Positions 2-61,649 of a DNA stretch of 64,000 nt are shown piece after piece (the stretch's first letter is position 1; every line of letters begins with the position of its first letter). Below the pieces are notes generated by a model. The model was given only the letters and a program-made list of their open reading frames with translations, was not told the DNA's origin and did not search any database. Origin of the DNA: Elusimicrobiota bacterium. Lineage in GTDB: Bacteria > Elusimicrobiota > Elusimicrobia > UBA1565 > JACRDR01. The translations under genes were made by a program, and so were the position numbers. The stretch covers positions 15,667 to 79,666 of the forward strand of contig JAPLKK010000017.1 of assembly GCA_026388115.1 (NCBI GenBank), read 5' to 3'.

Positions 2-3000
2 AACCCGAACGGCGGGTTCGTCACCGTCACGGGCTCGAGCCTCACGTCGCTGACCGCCTACAACAATAAGTACTTCGCCGGCGGCGCGGATGGGCGGGTC
101 TATGTGGCCACCGACGGCGTCACGTGGAGCGCCGCCAACGGCGGCGTGGCGTTCGCGACGACGCCGATCCAGACCCTGGCCGCGTTCGACGGAAGGCTGT
201 ACGCCGGCGACGCGACGGGCCGCCTGTACGTCAGCACCGAGGGCAGCGTCTGGATGGTGACGGAGAGCGGCTATCCGATCAGCGGAAGCATCTGGAGCCT
301 GGCGCCGTTCAACGGCAAGCTCTTCACCGCGGACAATATCCTGGCCGGCAATATCTACCAAGTCACGCCGGTCGCCGCCTCCTTCTCCGCCGGCGCGGGC
401 GACGGCACGACGTTGAGCCAGACGCTGAGCGCGACCAACCTCAACCTCGTCAACTCGACGAACACGGCCTCGTGCGCGGGCTTCATGCCCTGCGCCGCGA
501 CGAACCAGGTGATCTTCACGGCGAGCGACCTCGCCGGCAACGTCTTGCGCGCGGGTCCGTTCGCGATCCAGGTGGACGCGACGACGCTGCTCGCGATCTC
601 GACGCCGATCTTCCCGGCCAACGGCGCCTACGTGAACGTCCAGCCGAACTTCGACTGGATCGCTCCCAGCACGACCACGGTCGCCGGCTTGCCGCCGAAC
701 ACGATCTATAACTTCCAGGTCGCGCAGGGCGACCCGTCCTTCCAGCCGATCAGCATCGTCATCAACGTCTCGACGCCGGCCGTGGTGACGAGCACGGTCG
801 TGCCGATGGCTTACGGCGCCTACGTCTCCACCTACGCCCTCGCCAACAACGCGACGTTCTACTGGCGCGTGCAGATCGTCAACGGCATCTACGGCTCCCA
901 GAGCGCGTGGTCTCAGACCTCCAGCTTCGTGACCGCCTTCACCCCGCCGGCGCAGACCGGCGCCTTCCTGAGTTGGGCCTCGACCGGCGGCTTCATCGCC
1001 GAGGTGCAGGTCAACGGCCTGGCCACGGGCGTGACCGCGCAGGTCTCCGTGCAGGATCCGATGGCCGGCCTGGTCGTCTCGACGAACGTGCTGGCCTTCG
1101 CCGGCAACGGCCACGACTTCGCGGGCGGGACCGGCGCGTTCGGCGTCATTTATTCCACGAACTCGGGCCAGACCTGGGTGGACGCCTCGACCGTGACCGT
1201 GGCTAACGGCGGCTACGCGATCGTCGCCTCGAACCTGCGCGCGCTGACCGTGTTCAACAACGCGCTCTATGTCGCCGACGGCAACGGCAGGGTCTACTCG
1301 AGCCCCGACGGCGTGAGCTGGGGCGCGACCAACGGAGGCGCGACCGTCGGCGCCGGCGCCATCCGCGCCATGGCGGTCTTCAACGGTCGTCTGTTCGCGG
1401 GAGACAACACCGGGCGGATCTGGGCGAACAACGGGGTCTCGTGGAGCCAGTCCAACAACAGCCAGGTGGTCGGCACCGGGATCGCGGCCATGACGGTCTT
1501 CAACGGCAACCTGTACGCCGGCGACGGCTCCAGCCCCGGCCGGCTGTACGTGAGCACCGACGGCAACTCCTGGAGGATGGTCCAGGCGGGCATCGGGCCC
1601 TTGGGCACCAGCGGCATCCAGTCCTTGGCCGCGTTCAACGGCCGGCTCTTCGTCGGCGAGCAGGGCATCAGCGCCGCCGCCAGGATATTCTCCTCGGTGG
1701 ACGGCAGCACCTGGCCGTCGAACGCGGTGGCCTCGCTGGGCGCCGTCAACACCAACATCGGCTCGCTGGTCGCGTTCAACAACAAGCTCATCGCCGGCGA
1801 CCAGGGGAACCAGAAGGTGTACGTGAGCACCGACGGCAACTTGTGGAACGCCGGCGTCATGCTCGCGCCCACGGCCAGCAACATCAACGCCCTCACCGTC
1901 TTCAACGGCAAGCTGTACGCCGGGGATTCGCTCGGCCGCCTGTACGTGAGCACCGAGGCGAGCACCTGGCTCGTGACCAACGGCAGCTTCCCGATCGCCG
2001 CCGCCGGCGCCGGCATCCAAGCCTTGGTGCCGTTCAACGGCAAGCTGTACGCGGCCGACAGCGCCGGCTTCGTGTATCAGATGACGCCGACCAGCATGAC
2101 GCTCTCGGGCGCCGACGGCTCGACCGCCTCCCAGGTCCTCGCCGCCAACGCGATGAACCTCGCCAACTCGAGCAACACCCAGACCTGCAACGGTGTCTGG
2201 CCCTGCGGCGCGACCAATCAGGTCCTGTTCACCGTCGTCGATCGCGCGGGCAACGTGGCCAAGTTCGGCCCGTACGCCGTCCAGGTGGACGCGAACACCG
2301 GCCTGGCCGTCTCGGCGCCAAGCCTCCCGGCCAACGGCGCCTACGTGACCACCGGCACCGTGAACTTCGACTGGACCGGCCCGAGCACGGTGACCTTGAG
2401 CGGCCTGCCGGCGGGGACCTCGTACTTCCTGCAGGTGTCGAGGAACGACCCGTCGTTCGCCGGCAACATCGTCGTGGCGATCACCACGCAGGCCGTTCCG
2501 ATCGTGAGCACGACGATGCCCACGGCCTTCGGCGCCTATTACTCGACCTATACGTTGGCCAACAACGCGACCTACTACTGGCGTGTCGCGACGATCAACG
2601 GTACCTACGGCACGGTGAGCCCCTTCTCGCAGACCTACAGCTTCGTGACCGACGTCGCGCTGCCCGTCAGCTCGGGCCCGTTCACGAGCATGGCCCCGGG
2701 CGGAGCGGTGGGCGAGTCCCAGATCAACACGCTGATCGCGAACGTCACGGCCCAGATCGCGCTGTCGCAGGCGGTCAGCGGCTTGGCCGTCTCCACCGGC
2801 GCCGTGGCCTTCGCGGGCGACGGGCACAACTTCCCGGGCGTCACCTCCGGCTTCGGCGTGATGTACTCGACCAACGCGGGACAGACGTGGATCGACTCGT
2901 CGCAGGTCACGGTCGCCAGCGGCGGGATTTCGCTCGGCGGCTACGCCTTGCGCGCCTTCGCGGTGTTCCAGGGCCAGCTGTACGCCGCCGACGCTAACGG

Positions 3001-39410: not shown

Positions 39411-41884
39411 TGGAGTTCCTGCTCATCGCCGCGATGCCGCTGATGTTCCTGCTCCTGGCGACCGTGATGATGGTCGTGAGCGAGACGTCCGGCTTCTTCA
39501 CCTTCACGCGCATGTCGGCCCGCCAGCGGGCGACCAACCGGGTGCTGCTGGGCTACGTCCAGCGCCAGCGCATGGCGCGCCGCCAGCTCTCCTTGCGCAG
39601 CCGCCAGCTCGCGGGCCTTTCGGCGAGCCTGGCGGGCTCCAACCGCGAGCTCGAGCAGCTCAACAGCCTCAAGTCGCGCTTCTTGTCGGTGGCCGCGCAC
39701 GACATGCGCACGCCGCTGGCCTCCATCCGCGGCTTCGCCGAGAGCCTCTCGGGGCAGAAGATGCTGACGCCCAAGGACCGCCGCTACGTCGGCAACATCA
39801 TGACGGCCGCGGACCAGATGGGGCGGCTGACGGCGGACCTGACGGACCTGTCGATCATCGAGGCCGGCAAGCTCAAGATGGAGCCGGCGCCCTTCGACTA
39901 CGCCGCGCTCATCGAGGAGCTGTGGGGACAGCTGAGCCTGGTGGCCGAGCGCAAGGGGGTGCGCCTCATCGCCTCGGAGCTTCCGCGCGGCCTCGTCCTC
40001 GCCGGCGACCGCTTCCGCATCGGTCAGGTCGTCAGCAACCTCGTCGGCAACGCGATCAAGTTCACCCCGGCCGGAGGCGTGGTGGACCTGCGGGTGCGCG
40101 AGGCGGCGTCGGGCGTGATGACCGTCGTCGCCGACACCGGCCCTGGCATCCATCCCTCCGAGCAGAAGCGCATCTTCGAGAAGTTCTATCAGGCGCGCTA
40201 CGGGGCGAGCGCCGCCGCCGCCAAGCAGGGCTGGGGCCTCGGCCTCTCCATCGCCTTCGAGATCGTGCATGCCCATCACGGCGAGATCGGCGTCGAGTCG
40301 CCGGGCCTGGGCCGCGGATCGAAGTTCTGGTTCTTCATCCCGCGCGAGCCGGCGGCGCGCAGGCCCGGGGCGGGGCTGTTGCGCGCCCTGGCGGCGGCGG
40401 CGCTCCTGCTCGCGTTCGTCTTGAGGACGGGAGCGCAGGCGCAGACCCTCCCCTTGGAGGACAAATCGCGCTACGACAAGTACCTCGAGCAGAAGGTCGA
40501 GTCGGTGCTGACCGACATGCTCGGCCCCGGCCGCGCCAAGGTGGTCGTGGACGCCACGGTGGACTTCACGCGCATCGAGAAGTTCACGGTCGCCGGGGGC
40601 GAGGGCAAGGGCAAGGATAAGGCCGGCCAGGAAGCCCTGTACGCCTGGCAGAACATCGTCGCCCAGACCAGCGGCCCCAACGAGTTCCTGCCGGGCGTGC
40701 CGGTCCATGAGGGCGGCCCCGGCGGGGCGCCGACCTCCTATGAGCGTCAGTCGGGATTCACCCCCGAATTCCTTAAGAAGCTCTCGGTGACGCTCATCGT
40801 GGACCAGAGCGTCCCGGAAAGGCAGGTGGGCGACATCCAGGACATCGTCACCAACCTCCTGCAGGTGGACGAGGCCCGCGGCGACGCGTTGACGGTCGTG
40901 CGCACGACCTTCCCGCCTCCCTGGAAGACGATGTGGTATTCGCAGGACTCGGTGAGCATGGTCTTCCGCTACTCGATCCTGGGCCTGTTGTGCCTGGCGA
41001 CGCTCACCGTGGTGGCCTTTTGCTTCTACCGCCTCGCGGGGGCCATGGACGCCATGGCGCGCAGCCAGGCGAACTACGGCTTCGACCTGGGCCAGGAGGC
41101 CGCGGGATTGGGCGAGCCGGCGGCCGAGCCGCCCGCCATCGAGGCCGAGCAGAAAGAGGAGCCGCAGGCCCTTGCGGGCCCCGAGGGAGAGCAGATCGTC
41201 ATCGCGGTGCGCGAGGACCAGATGCCCGTGCTGGTGACCATGATGCTGGGAGAGGAGCCGGAGAACATCGCGCTGGTCATGGCCCACCTGGACCCCGAGC
41301 GCCGGCGCGACTTCATGCGCCAGATGCCGCGCGAGCTGGAGGCGAAGGTGCTGGGCAGCCTCGCGCAGGTGCGCTTCGTGGAGGAGAGCCTGGTCCAGTC
41401 TATAAAGGAAGAGATCGAGCGCCGGCTGGCGGGGGCGGTGGGGGGCCTGCACAGCGTCTATCAGATCGTCGACCAGGCGGACCCATCGGCCAAGCGGGAG
41501 CTGTTGGAGATCCTGCGGCGCACCGACCCCGACCTGGCGAAGGCCGTCCGCTCGCGCATCCTGCTCATGGAGGACCTGCTGCGGCTCAGCGCCGACGGCT
41601 GGAGCCTCCTCACCGGGCGGGTGCGCCTGGAGGACTGGGCCTCGGCGCTCAAGGACGCCTCGTCCGAGCTCAAGGACGCCTTGCGGTCCCAGATGCTGCC
41701 GAGGACGTGGGCGATCCTGGAGCAGGTGGCCGAATCGGGCGAGGCCACCCCCGAGAAGCTCGCCGCCGCCCAATCGGCCATCCTCGACGAGGTCTCGCGG
41801 ATGATCTCGGCGAACCTCATCGAGGACCCGCGGCCGACCGAGGAAGCGCCGCAGCGTTTGGAAGCGCCGGCGGTAGGAGCATAA
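39410..41884 (+). CDS. Chimeric membrane protein. An N-terminal TM is followed by a histidine kinase (HisKA plus HATPase_c), then a TM and a FliF/YscJ-type ring-building (RBM3-like) periplasmic domain, then a TM and a FliG-like domain (N domain plus C-terminal torque helix). The start overlaps the upstream stop (ATAATG).
   Basis: Kinase part: His[15 protein letters not shown]; HATPase N-box [24 protein letters not shown]. FliF-like part: [29 protein letters not shown] (compare Salmonella FliF IEAILSPIVGNGNVHAQVTAQLDF), LSVTLIVDQ, and [13 protein letters not shown] preceding the [26 protein letters not shown]. FliG N-like: [25 protein letters not shown]. FliG C-like: [27 protein letters not shown] (compare FliG ALKGASEELREKIFKNMSKRAAEMLREDLE). 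There is no in-frame stop between the parts. Confidence 0.7.
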
Positions 41885-42844: not shown

Positions 42845-44408
42845 AATAGAATACGCTGCCTTTTTCGGGCTCCGATTCCGCCCAGATCCTGCCGCCGTGC
42901 CCCTCGACGATCGTCTTGCAGATCGAAAGCCCCAGGCCCGTGCCCTCCACCGGCGTCGCCCGGTGATGGTCGTCCACGATCCTTTCGAACTTGACGAACA
43001 GCCGTCCCATATCCTCGGGCCGTATCCCGAGGCCGGTGTCCTTGACCGCGCAGCGGATGAAGTCCCCGTCGCGTCCGGCCTCGATGCGGACCGAGCCGCC
43101 GCGCGGGGTGAACTTGAGGGCGTTGCCGATCAGGTTGTTGAAGACCTGGTCGAGCTTCTCGGGATCCGCCCAGACGGCGGGCAGGTCCTCTGGAACGTCG
43201 TGGCTGAAGGCGACGCCGCGCGAGGCCGCGCTCGCGGCTAACAGAGCCAGGCGCGGCACGAGCTCCTGGAGGCGCGCCTCCTTCATCATGAATTTGAACC
43301 GCCCCGAGCGGATCCTCGCCGCGTCCAGGATGTTGGCCACGAAAGCCGACAGCTTCCGCGTCGAGTTCTTGATGAGGTTCACCAGCCGCGTCTGCTCCTC
43401 GCCGAGCGAGCCGTAGTCGCCGGTCGTGAGCGCGTCGGTGATCATCGTGACGGCGTTGAGGGGCCCGCGCAGGTCGTGCGAGACCATCGAGATGAACTCG
43501 TCTTTGAGCTGGTCGAGGGTGCGCAGCCGGTCGTACAGCTTGGCGTTGTGGATCGCCTGGGCGATCATCGAGCAGAAGATGGCGGCGTGCCGCAGGTCCT
43601 GGGCCACGAACGGCTGCTGGCCCGGCTTGCGGTTGACGCTCAGCACGCCCAAAAGGTCCTCGTTGAGCATGATCGGGTACACCAGCGACACGCCGACGTC
43701 CTTGCGCCCCGGCAGGTCGGCGAAGCGCGGGTCGGTCTGCAGGGGGCCGTTGATGTTGACGCCGGTCCGCCATTGGGCGACGCGGTCGGCCACGGCGGGG
43801 GCCGGGGCCACGGAGGGCATGCGCCCCCACTCCTCGCGGGGGAGGGCGGTCGAGGCGGTCAGCGTGAACTGCTTCTGGTCGTTGAGGAGCATCACGCTCA
43901 CGTCATCGGCGCTCAGGACCTTGGCGGCCAGCGAGATGAGATCGGGCAGCAGCTCCTCGAGCTCCGTGTCGGCGAAGACGCTGCGCGTCGCCTCATAGAG
44001 CGCGACCAGCGCCTTGAGGCCGATCTTCTCGCCGAGGGCGGGCAGGAGCGCCTCGAGCTCGACCTGGGCGAACGGCTTGATAAGGAAGGCGTAGGCCCCG
44101 AGGCGGATGGCCTGCCGCGCGACGCGCTCGGCGAGGGCGTCGCCGGTGGCCAGGATCACCTCGATGTCGGGGTCCACCCGGCGCAGGGCCTCGAGGGTCT
44201 GCAGGCCGTCTTTGCCCGGGAGCTGGTAGTCCACCACGGCGACCTGGAACTTGCGCCGGCGGGCCTCGGCCACCGCCTTTTCAGCGGTGTCAACGCCGAC
44301 CACCTCGTAGCCCTTGGCCTTCAGGCTCGCGGAGACAAGCTCCCGCCACTCGTCGTCATCTTCGACGACAAGGATGCGGTGAGCGTCAGAAGCCTCAGAC
44401 GCTCCCAT
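42744..44408 (-). CDS. Hybrid signalling protein: receiver (REC) domain, GAF-like domain and histidine kinase.
   Basis: REC: ILVVEDDDEW...VAVVDYQLPGKDGL...LIKPF. HisKA: FISMVSHDLRGPLNAV. HATPase: FNNLIGNALKFTP, DTGLGI, GTGLGLSICK. Its 3' end overlaps the convergent coiled-coil ORF by about 100 nt. Confidence 0.8.
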   Translation of the reverse strand: MGASEASDAHRILVVEDDDEWRELVSASLKAKGYEVVGVDTAEKAVAEARRRKFQVAVVDYQLPGKDGLQTLEALRRVDPDIEVILATGDALAERVARQAIRLGAYAFLIKPFAQVELEALLPALGEKIGLKALVALYEATRSVFADTELEELLPDLISLAAKVLSADDVSVMLLNDQKQFTLTASTALPREEWGRMPSVAPAPAVADRVAQWRTGVNINGPLQTDPRFADLPGRKDVGVSLVYPIMLNEDLLGVLSVNRKPGQQPFVAQDLRHAAIFCSMIAQAIHNAKLYDRLRTLDQLKDEFISMVSHDLRGPLNAVTMITDALTTGDYGSLGEEQTRLVNLIKNSTRKLSAFVANILDAARIRSGRFKFMMKEARLQELVPRLALLAASAASRGVAFSHDVPEDLPAVWADPEKLDQVFNNLIGNALKFTPRGGSVRIEAGRDGDFIRCAVKDTGLGIRPEDMGRLFVKFERIVDDHHRATPVEGTGLGLSICKTIVEGHGGRIWAESEPEKGSVFYFTLPVYSPRSTPGPDASARPASATAGQDAPARP

Positions 44409-46936: not shown

Positions 46937-48324
46937 AGCCTCTCCGGGTCGCTCGCCGAGTCCGCTTATCACTGCGGGCATTCGAAGCCGCCGCCGCATT
47001 CCAGGCGCTGGCGGGCGGCGCGCGCCAGGCCTTCCTCATCGAGCGCGGCGGCTGGGGCGGCGAGCCGGAGACCGCCTGCCTCGGCTGGGGTCCCGCGGCC
47101 GTCTTCCGCCTCTCGCGCGGCCGCTTGGCGGCTCTCGGCGCGCGGGCGCTCTCCGGACCTCACCCTCTCGCGGCCCTGGGCCGCTCGCTCCAAGCGGTCC
47201 TGGCCGCTCGCGCGGGCCCGGCCTGGGCCGGCGGCGCGGTCGGCTACCTGGCCTACGAGGTCGTCCGCCACGTCGAGCCGGTCCCCGCGCGGCCGCATCT
47301 GGCGGAGGAAGGCCTGCTGATGGTCTTCGACCGCGCGCTGATGCATGACTACCGCACCGGCGTGACGGAGCTGGTCCTGTGGGACCGGGGCGCCGCTGCC
47401 GCGCGGGAGGAAGCCGCCGTCGTCGAGAAGGCGCTTCTTGCCGTTGTTCCCTCTCCCCGCGTTCGGGGAGAGGGTAGGGTGAGGGTGAATTCCGTTAAAC
47501 TCACCAGTAGTCTCGGCCGCTCCGGCTACATGGCCGGGGTGCGGCGGCTCAAAGAGCACATCCGCGCCGGGGATATCTTCCAGGCCGTCCTGTCCGACCA
47601 GTTCCGCGCGAGCGTCCGCCCCGGCGACCTCGCGCTCTATCGCGCGCTGCGGGCCTCCAATCCCTCCCCCTACCATTTCCTCCTGCGCGACGGCGACGAA
47701 AGCTTCGTCGGCGCCTCGCCGGAACGCCTCATCAAGGTGGAGGGGAGGCGCGCGCTCTACAGCCCGATCGCCGGCACGCGCCCGCGCTCGCCGTCGGCGT
47801 CCCGGGACCGGCGGCTCGAGGCCGCGCTCAAGCGCAGCCCCAAGGAGCGCGCCGAGCATCTGATGCTCGTCGATCTCGGCCGCAACGACCTCGGCCGCGT
47901 CTGCCGGCCCGGCACCATCCGCGTGTCCCGCTTCATGGACGTGCGGCGCTTCTCGCGCGTCATGCATCTGGTCAGCGAGCTCGAGGGGCGGCTGGAGCGA
48001 GGAAAGTCCGCTTGGGACGCGCTCGAGGCGGCCTTCCCCGCGGGAACCGTGACGGGCGCTCCGAAGGTGCGCGCCATGCAGCTGCTGCATGAGCTGGAGC
48101 CGGCCGCCCGCGGCTTCTACGCGGGCGCCGTCGTTCAGCTGGATCCTCTCGGCAACCTCGACTCGTGCATCAGCCTGCGCAGCATCCGGCTGACGCCTTC
48201 GGGGGCGGTCCTGCAGGCGGGCGCCGGCATCGTCGCCGATTCGAACCCCGCGCGCGAGTACCGGGAGGTCCTGGACAAGCTCGAGGCCGGCCGCCGCGCG
48301 CTCGCGGCCGCCGCGCTCCTGTGA
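46933..48324 (+). CDS. trpE: Anthranilate synthase component I. Carries an in-frame palindromic-repeat insertion at about 47445-47490.
   Basis: Chorismate-binding core: GDIFQAVLSDQF, SPYHFLL, SPERL, LVDLGRNDLGRV, GTVTGAPKVRAMQLL, GFYAGAV. The ATGA overlap with the motB stop is read directly. Confidence 0.85.
   Translation: MKPLRVARRVRLSLRAFEAAAAFQALAGGARQAFLIERGGWGGEPETACLGWGPAAVFRLSRGRLAALGARALSGPHPLAALGRSLQAVLAARAGPAWAGGAVGYLAYEVVRHVEPVPARPHLAEEGLLMVFDRALMHDYRTGVTELVLWDRGAAAAREEAAVVEKALLAVVPSPRVRGEGRVRVNSVKLTSSLGRSGYMAGVRRLKEHIRAGDIFQAVLSDQFRASVRPGDLALYRALRASNPSPYHFLLRDGDESFVGASPERLIKVEGRRALYSPIAGTRPRSPSASRDRRLEAALKRSPKERAEHLMLVDLGRNDLGRVCRPGTIRVSRFMDVRRFSRVMHLVSELEGRLERGKSAWDALEAAFPAGTVTGAPKVRAMQLLHELEPAARGFYAGAVVQLDPLGNLDSCISLRSIRLTPSGAVLQAGAGIVADSNPAREYREVLDKLEAGRRALAAAALL
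47449..47488 (+). repeat. GC-rich palindromic REP-like element, copy 1: an 11-bp stem ccctctccccg / cggggagaggg with a cgtt loop, followed by tagggtgagggtga. It lies in-frame inside trpE and encodes ...PSPRVRGEGRVRVN...
   Basis: Perfect inverted repeat at 47449-47459 and 47464-47474. It is near-identical to copy 2 at 54270-54310. Confidence 0.7.

Positions 48325-51330: not shown

Positions 51331-51334
<4 letters not shown>
50696..51334 (+). CDS. trpF: Phosphoribosylanthranilate isomerase.
   Basis: [38 protein letters not shown]...QLHGSE. Overlaps trpC by 4 nt. Confidence 0.8.
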
Positions 51335-52392
<1,058 letters not shown>

Positions 52393-52396
<4 letters not shown>

Positions 52397-53190
52397 CGCT
52401 CGCCGAGGCGCTGGCGCGCGCGCGCCCTTCGAAGCGGTCGGGATTCGTGGCGTTCTTGACCGCCGGGGACCCCGACTTGCGCGCCACGGCCCGCTATGTG
52501 TCCGCCCTGCGCTCGGAAGGGGCGGACATCGTGGAGCTGGGGATCCCGTTCTCCGATCCGGTGGCTGACGGGCCCGTCATCCAGGCCGCCGCAGAGCGCG
52601 CCTTGAAGAAGGGCACGCGGCTCCTGGACGTGCTCGCCGCGCTCAGGCGCCTGCGCGCGGCCGGCGAACGCGTGCCGGTCATCCTCTTCAGCTACCTGAA
52701 CCCCGCGCTGCGGCTCGGGGCCGAGCGCTTCGCCCGCGAGGCCGCCGCCGCGGGAGCGCAGGGAGCCTTGCTCGTCGACCTGCCCGCCGAGAGCGCGGGG
52801 CCTTGGAGGCGGGCGCTCGCGCGCGCGGGCGTGGAGCTCGTGCTGCTCGCCTCCCCGACGACGTCGGATGAGCGCCTGCGCCTCATCGGAGACGGCAGCG
52901 GCTCGATCGTCTATTATGTGTCGCGCGAGGGCGTGACGGGGGCGCGCCGCGGGCTGCCTCCGGGGCTGGCCGAACGCCTGGCGCGCGTGCGCCGGCTCAC
53001 GGGCAAGCCGCTCATCGTGGGCTTCGGCGTCTGCGGCGCCGATCAGGCGCGCCGGCTGGCTCCCTTCGCCGCGGGTGTCGTCGTCGGCTCGGCGCTGGTC
53101 CGGGCGGCGGCGGGGAAGTCCGCCGCGGCGGGCGAGAGGGCGCTGCGGCGGCTGGCGAAGGACATCGTTCGGGGGTTATCGGAATGCTGA
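52393..53190 (+). CDS. trpA: Tryptophan synthase alpha chain.
   Basis: [14 protein letters not shown]...[21 protein letters not shown]...[14 protein letters not shown] overlap with trpB. Confidence 0.85.
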
Positions 53191-54245
53191 TCTTGATGGA
53201 GGCGGGGCACGAGGAGAAGCAGCTCGAAGCGGTGATCGAGAAGGTCCGGTCGCTGGGATTCAAGGCTCACGTCATCCCCGGCGCGCAGAATGTCGCCGTC
53301 GGCGTCACCGGCAACAACGCCGCCATCGACCCGAGGCTCTTCGAGGGCATGCCGGGCGTCGCCGATGCCATCCCCGTCACCAAGCCCTACAAGCTGGCCG
53401 GCCGCGATTTCAAGCGCGGCGAGACCGAGATCCGCGTCGGCGGGGTCGTCTTGGGCGGCTACGATTTCGTCGTGATCGCGGGCCCTTGCGCCGTCGAGTC
53501 CGAGGAGCAGACCCTGCGCATCGCCCGCGCCGTCAAAAAGGCCGGGGCGCATCTCTTGCGCGGAGGGGCCTACAAGCCGCGGACCTCGCCGTACGCTTTC
53601 CAGGGGCTGGGAGAGGAGGGCTTGAAGATCCTTGCCGCGGCGCGGGCCGAGGTGGGCCTGCCGATCGTGACCGAGGTGCTGGATCAGAGGAGCCTCGATG
53701 CCGTGGCCGCGACCGCGGACGTCCTGCAGGTCGGCGCGCGCAACATGCAGAACTTCGCCCTCCTGAAGGACCTCGGCAAGATCCATAAGCCGGTCATGCT
53801 CAAGCGCGGCCTGTCCGCCACGCTGGAGGAGTGGCTGCAGTCCGCCGAGTACATCCTGGCCGAGGGCAACCCCGACGTCTTCCTGTGCGAGCGCGGCGTG
53901 CGCACGTTCGCCGACCACGCCCGCAACACGCTCGACCTGAACGTGGTGCCGGCGATCCAAGAGTTGAGTCACCTGCCGATCTTCGTGGACCCCAGCCATG
54001 CCACCGGCCTGCGCCGCCGCGTCACGCCCATGGCGCGCGCCGCCGCCGCGGCGGGCGCGCACGGCGTCATGGTCGAGGTCCATGATCAGCCGCAGCACGC
54101 GCTCTGCGACGGCCCCCAGGCGCTGTCGCCGGACGAATTCGGCCACCTGATGGACGATCTCGACAAGCTCTGCCGCGCCATCGGCAAGCAGCTGGCCCCG
54201 CAGCCCGCCGCGACCGCCGCCTCCCGCACCAAGAGCCACCGCTAG
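53184..54245 (+). CDS. DAHP synthase of the I-beta (KDOPS-like) type, with an N-terminal ferredoxin-like/ACT-like regulatory domain.
   Basis: The N-terminal roughly 80 aa ([33 protein letters not shown]...) is followed by a DAHPS I-beta core: FVVIAGPCAVES...LLRGGAYKPRTSPYAFQGLGEEGL...VGARNMQNF...KPVMLKRG...DPSHATG. Overlaps the trpA stop by 7 nt. Confidence 0.8.
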   Translation: MLILMEAGHEEKQLEAVIEKVRSLGFKAHVIPGAQNVAVGVTGNNAAIDPRLFEGMPGVADAIPVTKPYKLAGRDFKRGETEIRVGGVVLGGYDFVVIAGPCAVESEEQTLRIARAVKKAGAHLLRGGAYKPRTSPYAFQGLGEEGLKILAAARAEVGLPIVTEVLDQRSLDAVAATADVLQVGARNMQNFALLKDLGKIHKPVMLKRGLSATLEEWLQSAEYILAEGNPDVFLCERGVRTFADHARNTLDLNVVPAIQELSHLPIFVDPSHATGLRRRVTPMARAAAAAGAHGVMVEVHDQPQHALCDGPQALSPDEFGHLMDDLDKLCRAIGKQLAPQPAATAASRTKSHR

Positions 54246-54269
54246 TCACACCGTTCTGCTTGTCGTTCT

Positions 54270-54310
54270 CCCTCTCCCGACGTTCGGGAGAGGGCCGGGG
54301 TGAGGGCAGG
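54270..54310 (+). repeat. GC-rich palindromic REP-like element, copy 2: stem ccctctcccg / cgggagaggg with an acgtt loop, followed by ccggggtgagggcagg. Intergenic, downstream of the DAHP synthase gene.
   Basis: Copy 1 tgttcCCTCTCCCcGcGTTCGGGgAGAGGGtaGGGTGAGGG aligns with copy 2 cgttctCCCTCTCCCGaCGTTCGGGAGAGGGccgGGGTGAGGG. Confidence 0.7.
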
Positions 54311-54352
54311 TTTCCGTTTCTTTTCTTCTCCAAGCTTTTCCTTCGGGCCGTG

Positions 54353-54473
54353 TCGGATATTGGTCCGGCGGAGACGCTCGCCGCGCTTTGGGCGCGGCTC
54401 GCTCGGTTACGGACGGCGCGGCTAGATGTGAGAACGCGCCGTCCTCCACACGCCCCGGCGGACCAATATCCGA
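54353..54473. repeat. MITE-like nested hairpin element: 19-bp terminal inverted repeats (18 of 19 complementary) flank an 83-nt core that contains a second 10-bp inverted repeat.
   Basis: tcggatattggtccggcgg at 54353-54371 pairs with ccggcggaccaatatccga at 54455-54473. The inner pair is ggacggcgcg ... cgcgccgtcc. Confidence 0.6.
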
Positions 54474-54583
54474 CCTGGCCCTCTGCGCCACGGCTACGTT
54501 GACGAAAACAGCTATCCAGACTACCTTCGGCCGCGGTGCGTAGATTAGCCCGGTTATTCTACGCAATTTAAGCGTAATATAAC

Positions 54584-54612
54584 TTGATTTAATCTCCCGT
54601 GTCCCCTACAAT
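54584..54612 (+). promoter_or_regulatory. Sigma70-like promoter for fic: TTGATT at 54584-54589, a 17-nt spacer, and TACAAT at 54607-54612. An AAGAG Shine-Dalgarno sits about 8 nt before the ATG at 54633. A 9-bp inverted repeat attctacgc...gcgtagaat brackets the promoter.
   Basis: Read directly from the sequence. Confidence 0.55.
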
Positions 54613-54632
54613 ATACGCACTAAGAGCGTAGA

Positions 54633-55739
54633 ATGACACAATACATCCACGAACTGAGCGATTGGCCCAATTTCCAATGGAGACAGGAGGTCCTGACCGA
54701 GATCCTAGCGAACGTCCGCCTCAAGCAAGGCCAGCTCATCGGTTCGATGGAAAGCCTAGGCTTCTCCCAGCAGAACGAGGCCGTGCTTAAGGCCTTGACG
54801 CAAGATGTCCTCAAGTCGAGCGAGATCGAGGGGGAGATCCTCAACCCGGATCAGGTGAGGTCGTCCATCGCTCGCCGGTTGGGCATAGACATTGCGGGTC
54901 TCACGCCCGCCGATCGTCAGGTTGAAGGCGTGGTGGAGATGACCCTTGAGGCCACGCAAAATTACTCCGAACCGCTGACGAAGGAGCGACTGTTCGGCTG
55001 GCATAAGGCATTGTTTCCCAGCGCGTCGCCGAGTGTGCAAGTGGGCCGGTGGCGCGACGACGCGAAGGGGCCGATGCAGGTGGTCTCGGGAGCCCTTGGT
55101 CGGGAGCGTGTCCATTACGAAGCGCCCGCAGCCGAGCGCTTGGATCGGGAGATGGAAGCCTTCTTCGAATGGGCGAATCGGTCCGGCGACATCGACCCGC
55201 TTCTTCGGGCGGCTAAGGCGCATCTTTGGTTCGTGAACATCCATCCATTCGACGACGGCAACGGCCGCATCGCGCGCGCCATCGCGGATTGGGCATTAGC
55301 GCGATCCGAGAACAGATTGCGCCGCGCCTACAGCATGTCGGCGCAAATCCAACTCGAACGCAAGGCCTACTATCAGATCCTTGAAAGCACCGGAAAGGGA
55401 GACCTCGACATCACGGACTGGATGTTATGGTTTCTCGGCTGCCTTGATCGGGCCATCGCCGGAGCGCAGGCTTCTCTAGGGTCCGTCTTGGAAAGAGACA
55501 AGTTCTGGAAGACGTACGCTCCGCTCCCGTTGAACGAGAGGCAAAAGCAGATGCTGAACAGGCTGCTCGACGGCAGTTTCAAGGGGAAACTGACCACGAC
55601 CAAATGGGCGAAGCTGACGAAATGCTCTCATGACACGGCGCAGCGCGACATCGTCAATCTCATCGAGCACGGAATCATGGTGAAGGACGCCGGCGGAGGC
55701 CGAAGTACGAGCTATTCCCTGAAGCAGGCGCGGATCTGA
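54633..55739 (+). CDS. fic: Fic-family (Fido) protein with an N-terminal DUF4172-like region. It has the HPFDDGNGRIAR active-site motif and an upstream SSEIEG inhibitory-helix-like motif. GC is lower than its surroundings.
   Basis: HPFDDGNGRIARAIADW matches HPFx[DE]GNGRxxR. SSEIEG matches [ST]xxxE[GN], N-terminal to the core. GC is about 57% against about 70% locally. Confidence 0.8.
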   Translation: MTQYIHELSDWPNFQWRQEVLTEILANVRLKQGQLIGSMESLGFSQQNEAVLKALTQDVLKSSEIEGEILNPDQVRSSIARRLGIDIAGLTPADRQVEGVVEMTLEATQNYSEPLTKERLFGWHKALFPSASPSVQVGRWRDDAKGPMQVVSGALGRERVHYEAPAAERLDREMEAFFEWANRSGDIDPLLRAAKAHLWFVNIHPFDDGNGRIARAIADWALARSENRLRRAYSMSAQIQLERKAYYQILESTGKGDLDITDWMLWFLGCLDRAIAGAQASLGSVLERDKFWKTYAPLPLNERQKQMLNRLLDGSFKGKLTTTKWAKLTKCSHDTAQRDIVNLIEHGIMVKDAGGGRSTSYSLKQARI

Positions 55740-55805
55740 TGGGCCGAAAGCTTCGTGCACTGCCGGATCAAGCGTTTCGTTAGTTTTATAGGATAGCCGT
55801 CAGCG

Positions 55806-57146
55806 ATGCCCCAGCCCTACCACCCCCGGTCGTGGATGCCCGCGGGCCGCAAGCCGCTCGTCGGCGAGCTGCGCGTCCCCGGCGACAAGTCGGTGTCTCA
55901 TCGCGCCCTGATCCTCGGCGCCCTCGCGGAGGGCACGACCGCGATCCGCGGGCTCTCCGACGGCGCGGACGTCGCCTCCACGCGCCGATGCCTCGAGCAG
56001 CTGGGCGTCCGCGTGGAGGACGGCGGCGAGCTCGTGAAGACGGCGGCGGGAGAGGCCTGGAGCGAGGTGCGCGTCCACGGGGCCGGCGCGGGCGGCCTTG
56101 CCGCTTCGCGCAGGGCCCTCGACTGCGGCAACTCGGGCACGACCCTGCGCCTGCTCCTCGGCGTGCTGGCGGGCCAGCCCTTCCGCTCCCGGCTCACCGG
56201 CGACGCCTCCTTGAGGCGGCGCCCGATGGGCCGCGTGGCCGAGCCCTTGCGCGCGATGGGGGCGAAGGTCGAGCTCTCCGACGGCGACCATGCGCCCTTG
56301 AGCGTGCGGGGCGGCGCCCTGCGGGGCATCGCGTACCGCTCCCCGGTGGCGAGCGCACAGCTCAAGAGCGCCGTGCTCTTGGCGGGGCTGTCCGCCTCGG
56401 GGGAGACGTCGGTCGAGGAGCCGAGCCCGAGCCGCGACCACACCGAGCGGATGCTCCGGCATTTCGGCGTGAAGGTGGGCGTCGAGGGCTCGCGCGTCTG
56501 GGTCCATGGCGGCGCCAGGCTGAAGGCCTCCAAGGTGCGCGTGCCCGGCGACGTCTCCTCGGCGGCTTTCTGGCTCGTGGCGGCCTGCGTGGTGCCGGGC
56601 TCCACGCTCCGGGTCGGAGGCGTCGGCATCAACCCCACGCGCGCGGGCGCCGTCGAGGTCCTGCGGCGCATGGGCGCCCGGCTCCAGGTGCGGCCGGCCC
56701 AGGCCGGCGCGGGTGAGGAGCCGGCGGCCGACATCACGGCGCGCCACGGGCCGTTGGTCGCGACCGAGACCACGCCGCAGGAGTTCCCCACGCTCGTCGA
56801 CGAGGCGCCGATCCTGGCCGTCGCCGCCACCCAAGCGCGCGGCACGACCCGCATCCGCGGCGCGGGCGAGCTGCGCGTGAAGGAATCCGACCGGCTCGAA
56901 GGGACGGTGCGGATGCTCGCGGCCTTCGGCGCCGAGGCCAAAGTCGAGGGCGACGACCTTGTCGTCTTCGGTCCGCAGGCGCTGCGAGGGGGCGTGGTCG
57001 ATCCGCGCGCCGACCATCGCATCGCCATGGCCGCGGCGGTCGCCGCGCTGATCGCCGACGGTCCGGCGAAAGTCCTCGACCCCGGCTGCGCCCAGATATC
57101 GTATCCTGCATTCTTTCCGACCCTCGATGCCCTCCTCAAAGCTTAA
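55806..57146 (+). CDS. aroA: 3-phosphoshikimate 1-carboxyvinyltransferase (EPSP synthase).
   Basis: LRVPGDKSVSHRALILGALAEG...LDCGNSGTTLRLL...RPM.RV..PL..MGA. Confidence 0.85.
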   Translation: MPQPYHPRSWMPAGRKPLVGELRVPGDKSVSHRALILGALAEGTTAIRGLSDGADVASTRRCLEQLGVRVEDGGELVKTAAGEAWSEVRVHGAGAGGLAASRRALDCGNSGTTLRLLLGVLAGQPFRSRLTGDASLRRRPMGRVAEPLRAMGAKVELSDGDHAPLSVRGGALRGIAYRSPVASAQLKSAVLLAGLSASGETSVEEPSPSRDHTERMLRHFGVKVGVEGSRVWVHGGARLKASKVRVPGDVSSAAFWLVAACVVPGSTLRVGGVGINPTRAGAVEVLRRMGARLQVRPAQAGAGEEPAADITARHGPLVATETTPQEFPTLVDEAPILAVAATQARGTTRIRGAGELRVKESDRLEGTVRMLAAFGAEAKVEGDDLVVFGPQALRGGVVDPRADHRIAMAAAVAALIADGPAKVLDPGCAQISYPAFFPTLDALLKA

Positions 57147-60672: not shown

Positions 60673-61113
60673 GTGGCGCGGTCCGGGAGGAACGTCCTCG
60701 TCCTGCACGGCCCGAACCTGAACCTGCTCGGCGAGCGCGAGACCGGGATCTACGGCGTGCGCAGCCTGGCCGAGCTGAACGCGGCGCTGCGCAAGAAGGC
60801 TCGCGAACTGGGCCTCACGCTGAAGATCTTCCAGAGCAACCATGAGGGCCGCCTCATCGATCTCTTGCACGCGAACCGCAAGTGGGCCTCGGCGGTCGTG
60901 ATCAATCCGGGCGCCTACACGCATTACAGCTACGCGCTGCGCGACGCCGTCGCCGCCGTCAGCCTGCGCGCCATCGAGGTTCATCTTTCGAACATCAAGA
61001 AGCGCGAGCCCTTCCGGCGCGTGTCGGTCATCGCCCCGGTCTGCGAGGCGCAGATCTCGGGCAAGGGCTTCGGCTCCTACGTCGCCGCGCTCGAGCGGCT
61101 CGCGAAGGGATGA
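60673..61113 (+). CDS. aroQ: Type II 3-dehydroquinate dehydratase.
   Basis: VLVLHGPNLNLLGERE..IYG...QSNHEGRLID...VINPGAYTHYSYALRDA. Confidence 0.85.
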   Translation: MARSGRNVLVLHGPNLNLLGERETGIYGVRSLAELNAALRKKARELGLTLKIFQSNHEGRLIDLLHANRKWASAVVINPGAYTHYSYALRDAVAAVSLRAIEVHLSNIKKREPFRRVSVIAPVCEAQISGKGFGSYVAALERLAKG

Positions 61114-61649
61114 CCGAGCGCGGCTTCGGCGGACGCCGCATCCGCCTGGTCCAAGGGGACATCACGAGATGCCCGGCCGACGCCATCGTCAACGCCGCCA
61201 ACTCCAGCCTGGCGGGCGGCGGGGGCGTCGACGGCGCCATCCACGACGCGGGCGGGCCGTCGATCATGGAGGAGCTCGACCGCATCCGCGGCCAGGGCTG
61301 CCCGACCGGTTCCGCCGTGATGACCGGGGCGGGGGACCTTCCCGCCAAGCACGTCATCCACGCCGTCGGTCCCCGCTGGCGGGGAGGCGGAAAAGGCGAG
61401 GAGCAGCTGCTCGCCAGCGCCTATCTATCGAGCCTGCGCCTCGCCGAGAAGGCGGGAGCCGCGGTCGTCACCTTCCCCTCGATCAGCACCGGCATCTACG
61501 GCTATCCCGTCGAAAAGGCCGCGCCGGTCGCCCTGGGGGCCGTGAGCGAGTTCCTCAAGGCGGAGGCGAAGGCCGTGCGCGAGGCGCAGTTCGTGCTCTT
61601 CGACCGGTTCACCTTCGCCGCCTACGAGGCGGCGCTCGGCGCGCTCTAA
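61110..61649 (+). CDS. Macro-domain protein (O-acetyl-ADP-ribose deacetylase / YmdB-like). ATG overlaps the aroQ stop; the track ORF at 60882 is an N-terminal extension.
   Basis: IRLVQGDITRCPADAIVNAANSSLAGGGGVDGAIHDAGG...HVIHAVGPRW...SISTGIYGYP. Confidence 0.8.
   Translation: MTERGFGGRRIRLVQGDITRCPADAIVNAANSSLAGGGGVDGAIHDAGGPSIMEELDRIRGQGCPTGSAVMTGAGDLPAKHVIHAVGPRWRGGGKGEEQLLASAYLSSLRLAEKAGAAVVTFPSISTGIYGYPVEKAAPVALGAVSEFLKAEAKAVREAQFVLFDRFTFAAYEAALGAL

What the first reader, a model, noticed from the sequence alone, without database searches (positions are those of the whole stretch)
54246..55805. A lower-GC fic cassette with its own promoter and hairpin elements, inserted between the DAHP synthase and aroA
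This is the only long intergenic region among the biosynthetic genes (54246-54632, 387 bp). It contains REP-like copy 2 and a 121-bp nested hairpin with 19-bp terminal inverted repeats. It also contains a near-consensus sigma70 promoter (TTGATT-17-TACAAT) bracketed by a 9-bp inverted repeat, a possible operator.

The promoter drives a Fic-family gene (HPFDDGNGRIAR, plus an upstream SSEIEG auto-inhibition-like motif). Its GC is about 57% against a background of about 70%. This looks like a horizontally acquired AMPylator or toxin-like module that landed inside the aromatic supraoperon. No cognate antitoxin ORF is apparent.
Basis: partly seen in the sequence, partly recalled or inferred. Interest (0 to 1): 0.5.

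Follow-up and report, generated by a model that had tools for sequence, protein, structure and literature searches.

The report
Self-repressing Fic gene in aromatic operon
A 1.2-kb foreign gene for a self-inhibited protein-AMPylating (Fic) enzyme, carrying its own promoter and operator sites, has recently landed between two normally abutting aromatic amino-acid genes of an Elusimicrobiota genome; it is a new member of a known family, not a new kind of system.

Summary
[quoted passage not shown] It is 41% identical to Coxiella CbFic2 (8CIL, TM 0.89).

The gene is compositionally foreign: GC3 is 0.76 against 0.86-0.93 in its neighbours. Relatives lack it at this site. In two of them the DAHP synthase and aroA genes overlap by 4 nt or sit 3 nt apart, and the closest relative carries a different small gene there.

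Close homologues sit in unrelated contexts, often beside toxin-antitoxin or defence genes, and on 740 plasmids.

No antitoxin is needed, because the inhibitory helix is part of the same protein.

Two palindromes (TACGCA-N5-AGCGTA), 54 bp apart, lie next to the -35 box and cover the -10 box through the start codon. The layout is conserved across about 75 loci. The half-site sequence co-varies without exception in the 80 sequences tabulated with the first two residues of the recognition helix.

This matches the published self-repression of CccR and promoter binding of SoFic, so it is a new member of a known kind.

The REP-like hairpin has two copies in the window. The 137-bp hairpin appears once, and its genome-wide copy number could not be tested.

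The parts
53184..54245 (+). DAHP synthase gene (FXD + DAHP_synth_1 domains); left host flank of the insertion
   Evidence: Pfam and NCBIfam matches. In relatives L090 and L091 this gene abuts aroA directly.
54255..54318 (+). REP-like 64-nt repeat, copy 2. It contains a perfect 11-bp-stem hairpin at 54270-54294, followed by GGGGTGAGGG.
   Evidence: it aligns to copy 1 at 47434-47497. Similar repeats occur in Cupriavidus, Mitsuaria and Enterobacter replicons and in E. coli genomes.
54345..54481 (.). 137-bp inverted-repeat element with 27-nt arms (24/27 complementary) and two inner stem-loops. Its function is unknown. It is single-copy in the window.
   Evidence: It was not found in any other fetched locus. 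The six 16-mer hits in viral contigs are chance matches. No Rfam match.
54537..54547 (+). Upstream half-site R1 (TGCGTAGATTA). This is where similarity to other fic cassettes begins.
54555..54581 (+). Operator O1: palindrome TATTCTACGCA-ATTTA-AGCGTAATATA, ending 2 nt before the -35 box
   Evidence: The equivalent palindrome lies 54-55 bp upstream of O2 in 12 or more independent loci.
54584..54612 (+). Sigma-70-type promoter TTGATT-17 nt-TACAAT
   Evidence: CTTGA and TATAAT are conserved in the alignment of four cassettes.
54609..54635 (+). Operator O2: palindrome CAATATACGCA-CTAAG-AGCGTAGAATG. It overlaps the -10 box, the likely transcription start, the weak ribosome-binding site and the ATG.
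   Evidence: This palindrome type occurs only twice in 64 kb, both times here, against 0.05 expected.
54633..55739 (+). fic ORF, 368 aa: class II Fic with DUF4172, Fic core and C-terminal winged helix (CbFic2 subfamily)
54816..54833 (+). Inhibitory-helix motif SSEIEG (aa 62-67), matching (S/T)xxxE(G/N)
   Evidence: It aligns to TSAIEG of CbFic2 (PMC10628234). E64, I65, E66 and G67 are invariant in 42 homologues.
55242..55277 (+). Catalytic Fic motif HPFDDGNGRIAR (aa 204-215)
   Evidence: H204, P205, F206, D208, G209, N210, G211, R212 and R215 are invariant.
55536..55721 (+). Winged helix-turn-helix (aa 302-363). The recognition helix is aa 333-345. The H333 and D334 codons lie at 55629-55634.
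   Evidence: AF2 model with pLDDT 87.7 and its helix boundaries. Covariation of H333/D334 with the operator core.
55740..55805 (+). 66-nt low-GC (0.53) spacer between the fic stop and the aroA start. No terminator-like or promoter-like site was found and there is no room for a partner ORF.
   Evidence: About 25 nt after the stop resemble L002.
55806..57146 (+). aroA (EPSP synthase); right host flank
   Evidence: The N-terminus is equivalent to that of aroA in the relatives.

Best explanation
This is a recently acquired, self-contained single-gene module about 1.2 kb long (about 54537-55739, perhaps extending to 55805). It encodes a class II Fic AMP-transferase of the CbFic2/CccR/SoFic architecture.

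What the sequence shows:
- The module carries its own sigma-70-type promoter.
- Two palindromic operators (TACGCA-N5-AGCGTA) lie 54 bp apart, centre to centre.
- O1 abuts the -35 box. O2 covers the -10 box, the probable transcription start, the ribosome-binding site and the ATG.

Inferred mechanism:
- The protein dimerises and its C-terminal winged helix binds these operators, repressing its own transcription.
- The first two residues of the recognition helix (H333, D334) read the A and the CG of the ACGCA core.
- Catalysis is held off in cis by the N-terminal inhibitory helix (S62...E66-G67), so no antitoxin gene is needed.
- When the inhibition is relieved, the enzyme AMPylates a cellular target and arrests growth. 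Candidate triggers are changes in oligomeric state or DNA binding, or phage infection. The target here is unknown; in characterised relatives it is EF-Tu, FtsZ or histone H3.
- This would fit a toxin-like or abortive-infection (SoFic-type) role.

Effect on the host operon:
- The module landed in the formerly overlapping DAHP-synthase | aroA junction of a trpEGDCFBA-aroF-aroAECKB supraoperon.
- No terminator-like site follows fic. The downstream aro genes are therefore probably transcribed by read-through from upstream, from the fic promoter, or both. This step is inference.
For: Protein identity:
- Pfam finds DUF4172, Fic and HTH_DeoR.
- The full-length match to 8CIL has E=2e-92.
- The AF2 model (pLDDT 87.7) superposes on 8CIL with TM 0.89 at 41% identity.
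- The catalytic and inhibitory motifs are intact and invariant in 42 homologues.

Recent acquisition:
- GC3 is 0.756 against 0.86-0.93 in neighbours, and this is the only one of 47 loci with a deficit above 0.05.
- The junction is empty in L090, L091 and L092, and is occupied by a different gene in L089.
- Homologues lie in different contexts: beside HEPN/NTase, AbiEii, HigBA, BrnT and RES-Xre genes.
- 740 plasmid records carry a homologue.

Operator:
- Five half-sites lie within 99 bp, against 2.06 per kb in the window.
- The palindrome occurs only at this promoter in 64 kb, 2 matches against 0.05 expected.
- The same layout is seen in about 75 non-identical upstream regions from several phyla and from cultured alphaproteobacterial plasmids.
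- 28 of 71 regions reach p<=0.05 in a crude repeated-6-mer test, where about 3.5 are expected.
- The 54-55-bp spacing between O1 and O2 recurs in 12 or more loci.

Covariation between helix and operator:
- Helix residues 'HD' go with ACGCA in 13 of 13 sequences.
- '[Q/S/P/T/A]D' goes with CCGCA in 40 of 40.
- 'xA', 'xP' and one 'RD' sequence go with neither core in 27 of 27 (26 xA/xP plus one RD; largely ATCA-type sites).
- The HD state appears at 4 or more separate places in the NJ tree.
- H333 and D334 are the first residues of helix 3.

Published precedent:
- CccR represses its own promoter through palindromes near the -35 and -10 boxes (PMC9755527).
- SoFic binds the first 100 bp upstream of its own start codon (bioRxiv 10.64898/2026.07.09.737422).
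- Sofic acts as an anti-phage system (PMC12249575), and the PADLOC SoFic model matches at E=1.6e-41.
Against: - No binding, repression, toxicity or AMPylation has been measured for this protein or for any member of its Elusimicrobiota clade.
- CbFic2, the closest characterised relative, bound random DNA with nM affinity, and no specific site is known for it (PMC10628234).
- The NCBIfam SoFic equivalog model scores 45.5 bits against a cutoff of 550. The protein is therefore not a SoFic orthologue, and the defence role is extrapolated.
- E. coli Sofic has a 47-aa downstream antitoxin, AS1 (PMC12249575), which is absent here.
- The half-site seen between the -35 and -10 boxes in many relatives is missing in the window.
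- The covariation counts sequences that are related to each other, although at least 4 independent switches are visible.
- The mechanism of insertion is unknown. There are no terminal repeats, no target duplication, and no integrase or transposase.
- The left junction is supported by only one assembly. L001 covers only from 54390 rightwards.
Confidence: 0.8

Rival explanations
1. fic is ancestral at this position and was lost from the relatives. Its low GC would then reflect family-specific constraints rather than recent transfer.
For: The family is abundant in Elusimicrobiota MAGs. The closest relative also has something inserted at this junction.
Against: - In 46 of 47 other loci, fic GC tracks the host to within 0.05 on the low side (no deficit beyond 0.05; median difference +0.014), so the family has no intrinsic low-GC bias.
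- L090 and L091 have a 4-nt overlap or a 3-nt gap between DAHPS and aroA, which is typical of old translational coupling.
- The L089 insert is an unrelated gene with native GC.
- None of the other fic loci inspected lies in an aro operon.
Confidence: 0.04
2. The protein is mainly a transcription factor recruited to regulate the downstream aro genes. Its wHTH would act on the operon, with Fic as a sensory or regulatory domain, rather than the whole being a selfish or defence module.
For: No terminator-like site and no separate promoter lie between fic and aroA, so aroA-aroB may be transcribed from the Fic-controlled promoter. CccR regulates genes other than its own (PMC9755527).
Against: The operator palindrome is found only at the fic promoter within the 64-kb window. 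The same promoter, operator and gene unit occurs in dozens of unrelated contexts. Relatives run the operon without it.
Confidence: 0.08
3. The hairpin elements (the REP-like repeat and the 137-bp inverted repeat) are the vehicle that carried fic in, as a MITE-like or composite mobile element.
For: Both lie in the new intergenic DNA, which relatives lack. The 137-bp element has 27-nt terminal inverted repeats.
Against: - Both elements lie on one side of fic only, and no matching repeat follows the gene.
- Similarity to other fic cassettes starts downstream of them, at about 54537.
- Neither element is present at any of the roughly 90 other fic loci.
- The REP-like repeat has another copy in trpE, far from any fic gene.
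- Similar REP-like repeats occur in proteobacterial replicons and E. coli genomes. This fits a resident repeat colonising a newly created intergenic space.
Confidence: 0.06
4. The insertion is an assembly chimera: a lower-GC fragment from another population was joined into the contig.
For: The sequence comes from a metagenome-assembled genome. trpB in the same operon shows a frameshift that could be an assembly error.
Against: An independent Logan assembly of run SRR25046533 (L001, 4075 bp) spans hairpin, promoter, fic, aroA and aroE with an identical sequence. The insert sits exactly between a stop codon and a start codon, with both host genes intact. The host REP-like repeat lies inside the new intergenic DNA.
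Confidence: 0.03

Closest known systems
CbFic2 (Coxiella burnetii CBU_0822; PDB 8CIL; PMC10628234)
   Same: It shares the full-length architecture of DUF4172 with an N-terminal inhibitory helix (TSAIEG against SSEIEG, both at aa 62-67), a Fic motif of the form HPFDDGNGRIxR, and a DeoR-type wHTH. The sequence match has E=2e-92. The fold superposes with TM 0.89 at 41% identity. CbFic2 is a dimer that binds DNA, and DNA binding stimulates its (de)AMPylation activity.
   Different: CbFic2 is proposed to be a secreted effector acting on host histone H3, and no specific DNA site is known for it. Its recognition helix begins 'RT' rather than 'HD'. The present gene is in a free-living Elusimicrobiota MAG and carries a clearly defined palindromic operator pair.
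CccR (Yersinia pseudotuberculosis YPK_0951; PMC9755527)
   Same: It is a class II Fic (S59ARIEG) with a C-terminal HTH, and it works as a dimer. It represses its own promoter through inverted repeats near the -35 and -10 boxes. Its regulatory and toxic activities are separable. The CccR half-site (…ATAATCA) resembles the ATCA-type half-sites of the 'xA' branch of this family.
   Different: Similarity is low: about 18% identity to PDB 7XUX, which I take to be CccR but did not verify. CccR's operator is described as AGATAATCAT-N26-ATGATAATCT rather than two short palindromes 54 bp apart. CccR is a T6SS effector encoded in an effector cluster and targets FtsZ. No T6SS context is seen here.
SoFic (Shewanella oneidensis SO_4266) and the single-gene 'SoFic/Sofic' anti-phage system (PADLOC; PMC12249575; bioRxiv 10.64898/2026.07.09.737422)
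   Same: It has the same class II Fic plus wHTH layout. The PADLOC SoFic model matches aa 14-363 at E=1.6e-41. SoFic binds the 100 bp upstream of its own start codon only as a dimer. The family is reported to act as an abortive-infection defence. Homologues of the present gene sit beside TA and defence genes.
   Different: Identity to SoFic is only 15-16%. The NCBIfam SoFic equivalog model scores 45.5 bits against a cutoff of 550. E. coli Sofic has a 47-aa downstream antitoxin, AS1, which is absent here. Defence activity has not been tested for this subfamily.
Class I FicT/FicA-type toxin-antitoxin pairs (for example VbhT/VbhA)
   Same: They share the Fic catalytic core, an (S/T)xxxE(G/N) inhibitory helix, toxin-like behaviour and promoter autoregulation.
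   Different: In class I the inhibitory helix is on a separate antitoxin protein. Here it is in the same chain, and no partner ORF exists.

Membership tests
Fic/Fido AMP-transferases (Pfam PF02661) | Fic domain match above the curated threshold | tested here: met
   PF02661 scores 67.9 bits against a cutoff of 24, over aa 114-222.
Fic/Fido AMP-transferases (Pfam PF02661) | Catalytic motif HxFx(D/E)GN(G/K)RxxR with the catalytic His | tested here: met
   HPFDDGNGRIAR lies at aa 204-215. It is invariant in 42 homologues.
Fic/Fido AMP-transferases (Pfam PF02661) | AMPylation (or another NMP/phosphoryl transfer) activity on a target protein | not testable with these tools
   This needs biochemistry. 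The target is unknown.
Class II Fic proteins (Engel et al. classification, as summarised in PMC10628234) | Inhibitory motif (S/T)xxxE(G/N) in the same polypeptide, N-terminal to the Fic core | tested here: met
   S62-S-E-I-E66-G67 sits at the end of helix 44-65 and aligns to TSAIEG 62-67 of CbFic2.
Class II Fic proteins (Engel et al. classification, as summarised in PMC10628234) | No separate antitoxin gene supplying the inhibitory helix | tested here: met
   No ORF of 20 aa or more with a plausible position lies in 54246-54632 or 55740-55805. Neighbouring genes are not conserved among homologues.
CbFic2-type DUF4172-Fic-wHTH subfamily | Full-length sequence and fold similarity, including the N-terminal DUF4172 and the C-terminal DeoR-type winged helix | tested here: met
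   E=2e-92 over residues 1-364. TM 0.89, rmsd 2.7 A, 41% identity. The wHTH helices are 302-313, 322-329 and 333-345, followed by a wing.
CbFic2-type DUF4172-Fic-wHTH subfamily | Dimerisation through the N-terminal helix, and DNA-stimulated (de)AMPylation | not tested
   Only a monomer model was made. This needs experiment.
CccR-like autorepressing Fic regulators | Palindromic sites at the gene's own -35 and -10 region | tested here: met
   O1 (54555-54581) and O2 (54609-54635) flank or overlap TTGATT-17-TACAAT. They are unique in the window and conserved across the family.
CccR-like autorepressing Fic regulators | Direct, sequence-specific binding by the HTH, and repression of its own transcription | tested here: inconclusive
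   The support is indirect. The first two recognition-helix residues co-vary with the half-site core without exception (13/13, 40/40 and 27/27 sequences), with 4 or more independent switches. No binding or expression data exist.
SoFic anti-phage defence system (PADLOC / DefenseFinder sense) | Match to the SoFic defence-protein model | tested here: met
   PADLOC PDLC03963 SoFic matches at E=1.6e-41 over aa 14-363.
SoFic anti-phage defence system (PADLOC / DefenseFinder sense) | Orthology to S. oneidensis SoFic (NCBIfam equivalog NF046030) | tested here: not met
   The score is 45.5 bits against a cutoff of 550, with 15-16% identity to 3EQX and 3ZCN.
SoFic anti-phage defence system (PADLOC / DefenseFinder sense) | Protection against phage | not testable with these tools
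   This needs phage challenge. No host is cultured.
Integron gene cassette, MITE or IS-borne passenger | attC site, terminal inverted repeats on both sides, target-site duplication, or an adjacent integrase or transposase | tested here: not met
   The inverted-repeat element lies on one side only. No direct repeats flank the unit. No integrase or transposase lies among the operon genes annotated from trpE to aroB, about 46.9-60.7 kb.

The most novel reading that the evidence does not exclude
Across phyla, the DUF4172-Fic-wHTH family may travel as a 'plug-and-play' unit whose promoter carries two operators 54-55 bp apart.

- Operator specificity would be set by a simple two-residue code at the start of the recognition helix: H reads A, and Q/S/P goes with C, at one position; D goes with CG, and A with AT/TG, at the next.
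- Related cassettes in one cell would then be insulated from each other.
- The same code would predict a specific DNA site for CbFic2-type enzymes, for which none is currently known.
- In this genome the unit has in addition captured the transcription of five shikimate-pathway genes. That would tie aromatic amino-acid synthesis to the on/off state of a toxin-like AMPylase.
Probability: 0.2. Interest if true: 0.6.

Novelty: new member of a known kind. Interest (0 to 1): 0.35.

Why it matters
For this genome, the finding documents a recent horizontal insertion that splits a translationally coupled junction in a core biosynthetic operon. The downstream shikimate genes may now depend on read-through across strong hairpins or on a Fic-controlled promoter.

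For the Fic field, the comparative data offer three things that the papers I read do not report (I did not search systematically for earlier descriptions):
- a defined operator layout shared by CbFic2-type enzymes from Elusimicrobiota, Alphaproteobacteria plasmids and rumen Bacteroidota-like contigs;
- a testable residue-to-base specificity rule;
- a concrete DNA ligand to try in the DNA-stimulated (de)AMPylation assays, which so far have used random DNA.

None of this changes the classification. The gene is an ordinary, if neatly packaged, member of a known family.

Tried and rejected
- **Rfam.** A gathering-threshold search of the whole window and a permissive search of 54100-55900 found no RNA family for the hairpins. 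The only hit was a chance miRNA match at E=1.5.
- **Terminator scan.** No terminator-like site lies in 54100-56000. The REP-like hairpin is therefore not a canonical intrinsic terminator.
- **Copies of the 137-bp hairpin.**
  - There is no second copy in the window.
  - There is none in the 172 fetched loci, apart from L001, which is the same DNA.
  - Six exact 16-mer hits in viral contigs extend no further and lack the inverted partner, so they are chance matches.
  - A distant search of plasmids matched only the REP-like part.
- **GTDB-representative scan with the DAHP synthase.** It returned no close relative (best 63% identity). Those loci showed only that distant phyla often have a gene of about 1 kb between DAHPS and aroA. 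That gene was not identified and does not bear on this lineage. Close relatives came instead from the protein search and contig look-ups.
- **Integron attC, MITE or IS passenger.** Rejected: the repeats are on one side only, there is no target duplication and no recombinase.
- **Phage carriage.** No close homologue was found among 50,697 phage records; the best was 24% identity.
- **AS1-like downstream antitoxin.** There is no room and no ORF for one.
- **Finer operator rule.** A split of S against Q corresponding to ACCGCA against TCCGCA did not hold on the plasmid test set. Only the H against non-H and D against A/P distinctions are claimed.
Full report
**What is in the sequence**

Positions 54246-55805 lie between the stop codon of a DAHP synthase gene (53184-54245) and the start codon of aroA (55806-57146). 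Both genes belong to a tightly packed operon: trpE-G-D-C-F-B-A, DAHP synthase, aroA-E-C-K-B.

The interval holds a 387-bp non-coding stretch, an intact 368-aa ORF (54633-55739, + strand) and a 66-nt spacer.

Pfam assigns three domains to the ORF:
- DUF4172, aa 4-85;
- Fic, aa 114-222;
- a DeoR-like helix-turn-helix, aa 303-358.

The catalytic motif HPFDDGNGRIAR is at aa 204-215. The motif SSEIEG is at aa 62-67.

GC falls to 0.55-0.63 across 54400-55800, against 0.70-0.77 on either side. The ORF has GC 0.593 and GC3 0.756. Eleven neighbouring genes have GC3 of 0.86-0.93.

**Source organism and protein family**

The identical protein is NCBI MCX5787179.1, from an Elusimicrobiota MAG contig of 106 kb. 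An independently assembled 4-kb Logan contig carries the same promoter, fic, aroA and aroE.

The closest solved structure is Coxiella burnetii CbFic2, PDB 8CIL:
- The sequence match has E=2e-92 over residues 1-364.
- An AlphaFold model (pLDDT 87.7) superposes on it with TM 0.89 at 41% identity.
- SoFic and PDB 7XUX, which I take to be CccR, are far more distant at 15-18% identity.

CbFic2 is described as a class II Fic protein. Its inhibitory helix TSAIEG (aa 62-67) lies inside DUF4172, and it ends in a DeoR-type winged helix (PMC10628234). SSEIEG aligns exactly to that helix. It fits the (S/T)xxxE(G/N) rule, and its E-I-E-G residues are invariant in 42 homologues.

This explains why no antitoxin ORF is visible: inhibition is built into the protein. 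No small ORF fits upstream or in the 66-nt spacer. The 47-aa downstream antitoxin reported for E. coli Sofic (PMC12249575) has no counterpart here.

**Is the gene foreign here?**

Four lines of evidence agree.

1. *Composition.* Among 47 fic loci with at least 2.5 kb of flank, fic GC follows the host (median difference +0.014). Only the window shows a deficit above 0.05, at -0.143. The closest homologue (86% identity, L002) lies in a genome of about 59% GC, which matches the composition of the window gene.

2. *Synteny*.
   - Relatives whose DAHP synthase is 78-79% identical have DAHPS and aroA overlapping by 4 nt (ATGA) or separated by 3 nt. These are L090, from an Elusimicrobia MAG, and L091 and L092, from a groundwater metagenome.
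   - The closest relative (L089, 88% identity) has a different gene at the same junction. It encodes a 151-aa coiled-coil plus HTH_3 protein and has native GC.

3. *Genomic context.* Homologues at 66-86% identity lie in unrelated places:
   - beside LemA and TPM genes;
   - beside a HEPN/nucleotidyltransferase pair, a Schlafen-like helicase and AbiEii;
   - between HigB/HigA, BrnT and an HNH gene;
   - beside ferritin and a copper oxidase.

4. *Carriage on plasmids.* 740 plasmid records encode a homologue, with up to 64% identity in Methylocystis, Bradyrhizobium, Sphingomonas and Mesorhizobium. One lies next to a RES-Xre toxin pair. Phage records hold nothing close.

An ancestral gene that was lost from the relatives is therefore very unlikely.

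**The travelling unit and its regulatory region**

Alignment with three other cassettes shows that similarity begins at about 54537. It ends at, or about 25 nt after, the stop codon. The unit is the promoter region plus the ORF. No terminal repeats, target duplication or recombinase gene accompany it.

The features within 54537-54635 are laid out as follows:

| Feature | Coordinates | Sequence or note |
|---|---|---|
| Half-site R1 | 54537-54547 | TGCGTAGATTA |
| Operator O1 | 54555-54581 | TATTCTACGCA ATTTA AGCGTAATATA |
| -35 box | 54584-54589 | TTGATT |
| -10 box | 54607-54612 | TACAAT |
| Operator O2 | 54609-54635 | CAATATACGCA CTAAG AGCGTAGAATG |
| Start codon | 54633 | last three bases of O2 |

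Three statistics show this is not chance:
- Five GCGTA/TACGC half-sites fall within 99 bp, against 2.06 per kb in the window.
- The palindrome TACGCA-N5-TGCGTA, allowing one mismatch, occurs only twice in 64 kb. Both copies are here, against 0.05 expected.

**Comparative test of the operator**

I collected 80 further fic loci from metagenomes and five from plasmids of cultured Alphaproteobacteria. I then compared the 130 nt upstream of each start codon.

The layout recurs down to 49% protein identity:
- a palindrome just upstream of the -35 box;
- often a lone half-site between the -35 and -10 boxes;
- a second palindrome running from the -10 box to the start codon.

The spacer inside each palindrome is always 5 nt between the 6-mers. 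The two palindromes are 54-55 bp apart, centre to centre, in at least 12 independent loci. In the plasmid copies, the Shine-Dalgarno sequence GGAGG is itself the spacer of O2.

A crude test for a repeated 6-mer present in both orientations reached p<=0.05 in 28 of 71 non-identical regions. About 3.5 would be expected by chance.

**Covariation between protein and operator**

The half-site sequence differs between lineages, and it tracks the protein. In the motif K-C-S-X-D-T-A-x-R-D, residues X and X+1 (H333 and D334 in the window) are the first two residues of helix 3 of the winged helix.

Across 80 distinct sequences:

| Helix residues X, X+1 | Dominant half-site core | Sequences |
|---|---|---|
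| HD | ACGCA | 13 of 13 |
| Q/S/P/T/A followed by D | CCGCA | 40 of 40 |
| any residue followed by A or P, plus one RD sequence | neither core (largely ATCA-type sites) | 27 of 27 (26 + 1) |

In a neighbour-joining tree, the HD state appears in at least four separate places. Each is nested among non-HD sequences. The association is therefore not a single inherited event.

X is the variable position within an otherwise invariant helix.

This is strong indirect evidence that the protein's own winged helix reads these sites. It is not a binding measurement. A finer rule separating S from Q did not hold on the plasmid set, and I do not claim it.

**Comparison with published systems**

- CccR of Yersinia pseudotuberculosis is a class II Fic with a C-terminal HTH. 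It represses its own promoter as a dimer, through inverted repeats near the -35 and -10 boxes. It separately AMPylates FtsZ (PMC9755527).
- SoFic binds the first 100 bp upstream of its own gene, only as a dimer, and AMPylates EF-Tu (bioRxiv 10.64898/2026.07.09.737422).
- CbFic2 binds DNA, and this stimulates its (de)AMPylation activity. Only random DNA was tested (PMC10628234).
- 'Sofic' proteins are listed as single-gene abortive-infection defence systems (PMC12249575). The PADLOC SoFic model matches this protein at E=1.6e-41.
- The NCBIfam SoFic equivalog model fails clearly, at 45.5 bits against a cutoff of 550.

I therefore file the gene as a member of the CbFic2-type subfamily. It probably works like CccR and SoFic in self-repression. 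It may act as a toxin-like or defence module, but its target and trigger are unknown.

**The hairpins**

The REP-like hairpin (54270-54294, within a 64-nt repeat at 54255-54318) has a second copy at 47434-47497. It resembles GC-rich palindromic repeats found in Cupriavidus, Mitsuaria, Enterobacter and most E. coli genomes. From memory these resemble the E. coli 'boxC' repeats, but I did not verify the name.

The 137-bp inverted-repeat element (54345-54481) is single-copy in everything I could search. It matches no RNA family.

Both elements lie upstream of where cassette similarity begins, and they are absent from all other fic loci. Nothing shows that they arrived with the cassette. The REP-like repeat, which has a second copy in this genome, plausibly colonised the new intergenic space. 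The origin and role of the 137-bp element remain open. Possible roles are a transcript-end stabiliser, a pause site or no role at all. Its genome-wide copy number could not be measured.

**Consequence for the operon (inference)**

Relatives couple DAHPS and aroA translationally. Here the two genes are 1.56 kb apart. Two strong hairpins follow DAHPS, and no terminator-like or promoter-like site lies between fic and aroA.

aroA-E-C-K-B are therefore probably transcribed by read-through from the trp promoter, from the Fic-controlled promoter, or from both. trpB in the same operon is frameshifted in this assembly. The operon may be decaying, or the assembly may contain errors.

**Verdict**

The gene is a new member of a known kind. 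The operator layout and the residue-to-base covariation add to what the papers I read describe, and they are directly testable. They do not make this a new type of system.

Noticed in passing
window 104-8968 and 8953-37614 (+): Two very large ORFs (2954 and 9553 aa) are built from tandem units of about 1.7 kb, with many 'FNGKLYAGD'-type sub-repeats. Together they fill more than half of the window.
   Followed up: no
window 51331-52396: trpB is split between two reading frames. Residues 1-162 of relatives' TrpB align to 51331-51810, and residues from about 158 to 385 align to 51710-52393 in another frame. This is either a frameshift (pseudogene) or an assembly error, inside an otherwise intact trp operon.
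   Followed up: partly
window 47434-47497: Copy 1 of the 64-nt REP-like repeat lies in frame inside trpE, between the Anth_synt_I_N and Chorismate_bind domains (…VVPSPRVRGEGRVRVNS…). A palindromic repeat apparently sits within coding sequence.
   Followed up: partly
L089 5405-5860: The closest relative (DAHP synthase 88% identical) has a different gene at the same DAHPS|aroA junction. It encodes a 151-aa coiled-coil plus weak HTH_3 protein with native GC (0.706, GC3 0.91). The junction has therefore been occupied more than once in this clade.
   Followed up: partly
L009-L088 (for example L047 7011-7957): In many distant phyla, a gene of about 0.9-1.2 kb separates DAHPS from aroA. It was not identified; prephenate dehydrogenase is a guess. 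The lineage studied here has no such gene at that position.
   Followed up: no
window 60882-61649 (+): A Macro-domain ORF (PF01661, E=2e-42) lies directly after aroB at the end of the operon.
   Followed up: no
window 40020-40083 and 43090-43153: A 64-nt inverted repeat with 80% complementarity has its arms 3 kb apart. It is the longest inverted repeat in the window.
   Followed up: no
L173, L175, L176, L177 (about 25 nt before each fic start): In the alphaproteobacterial plasmid copies, the Shine-Dalgarno sequence (GGAGG, GAAGG or GAGG) is the 5-nt spacer of the start-proximal operator. One bound dimer would thus cover the -10 box, the transcription start, the ribosome-binding site and the ATG together.
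   Followed up: partly
L100-L122 group of metagenome loci: In this clade the palindrome sits at -35.5 relative to the ATG I chose, rather than at -10.5 and -65.5. Either the true start codons differ from my choice or the layout is shifted by one site.
   Followed up: no
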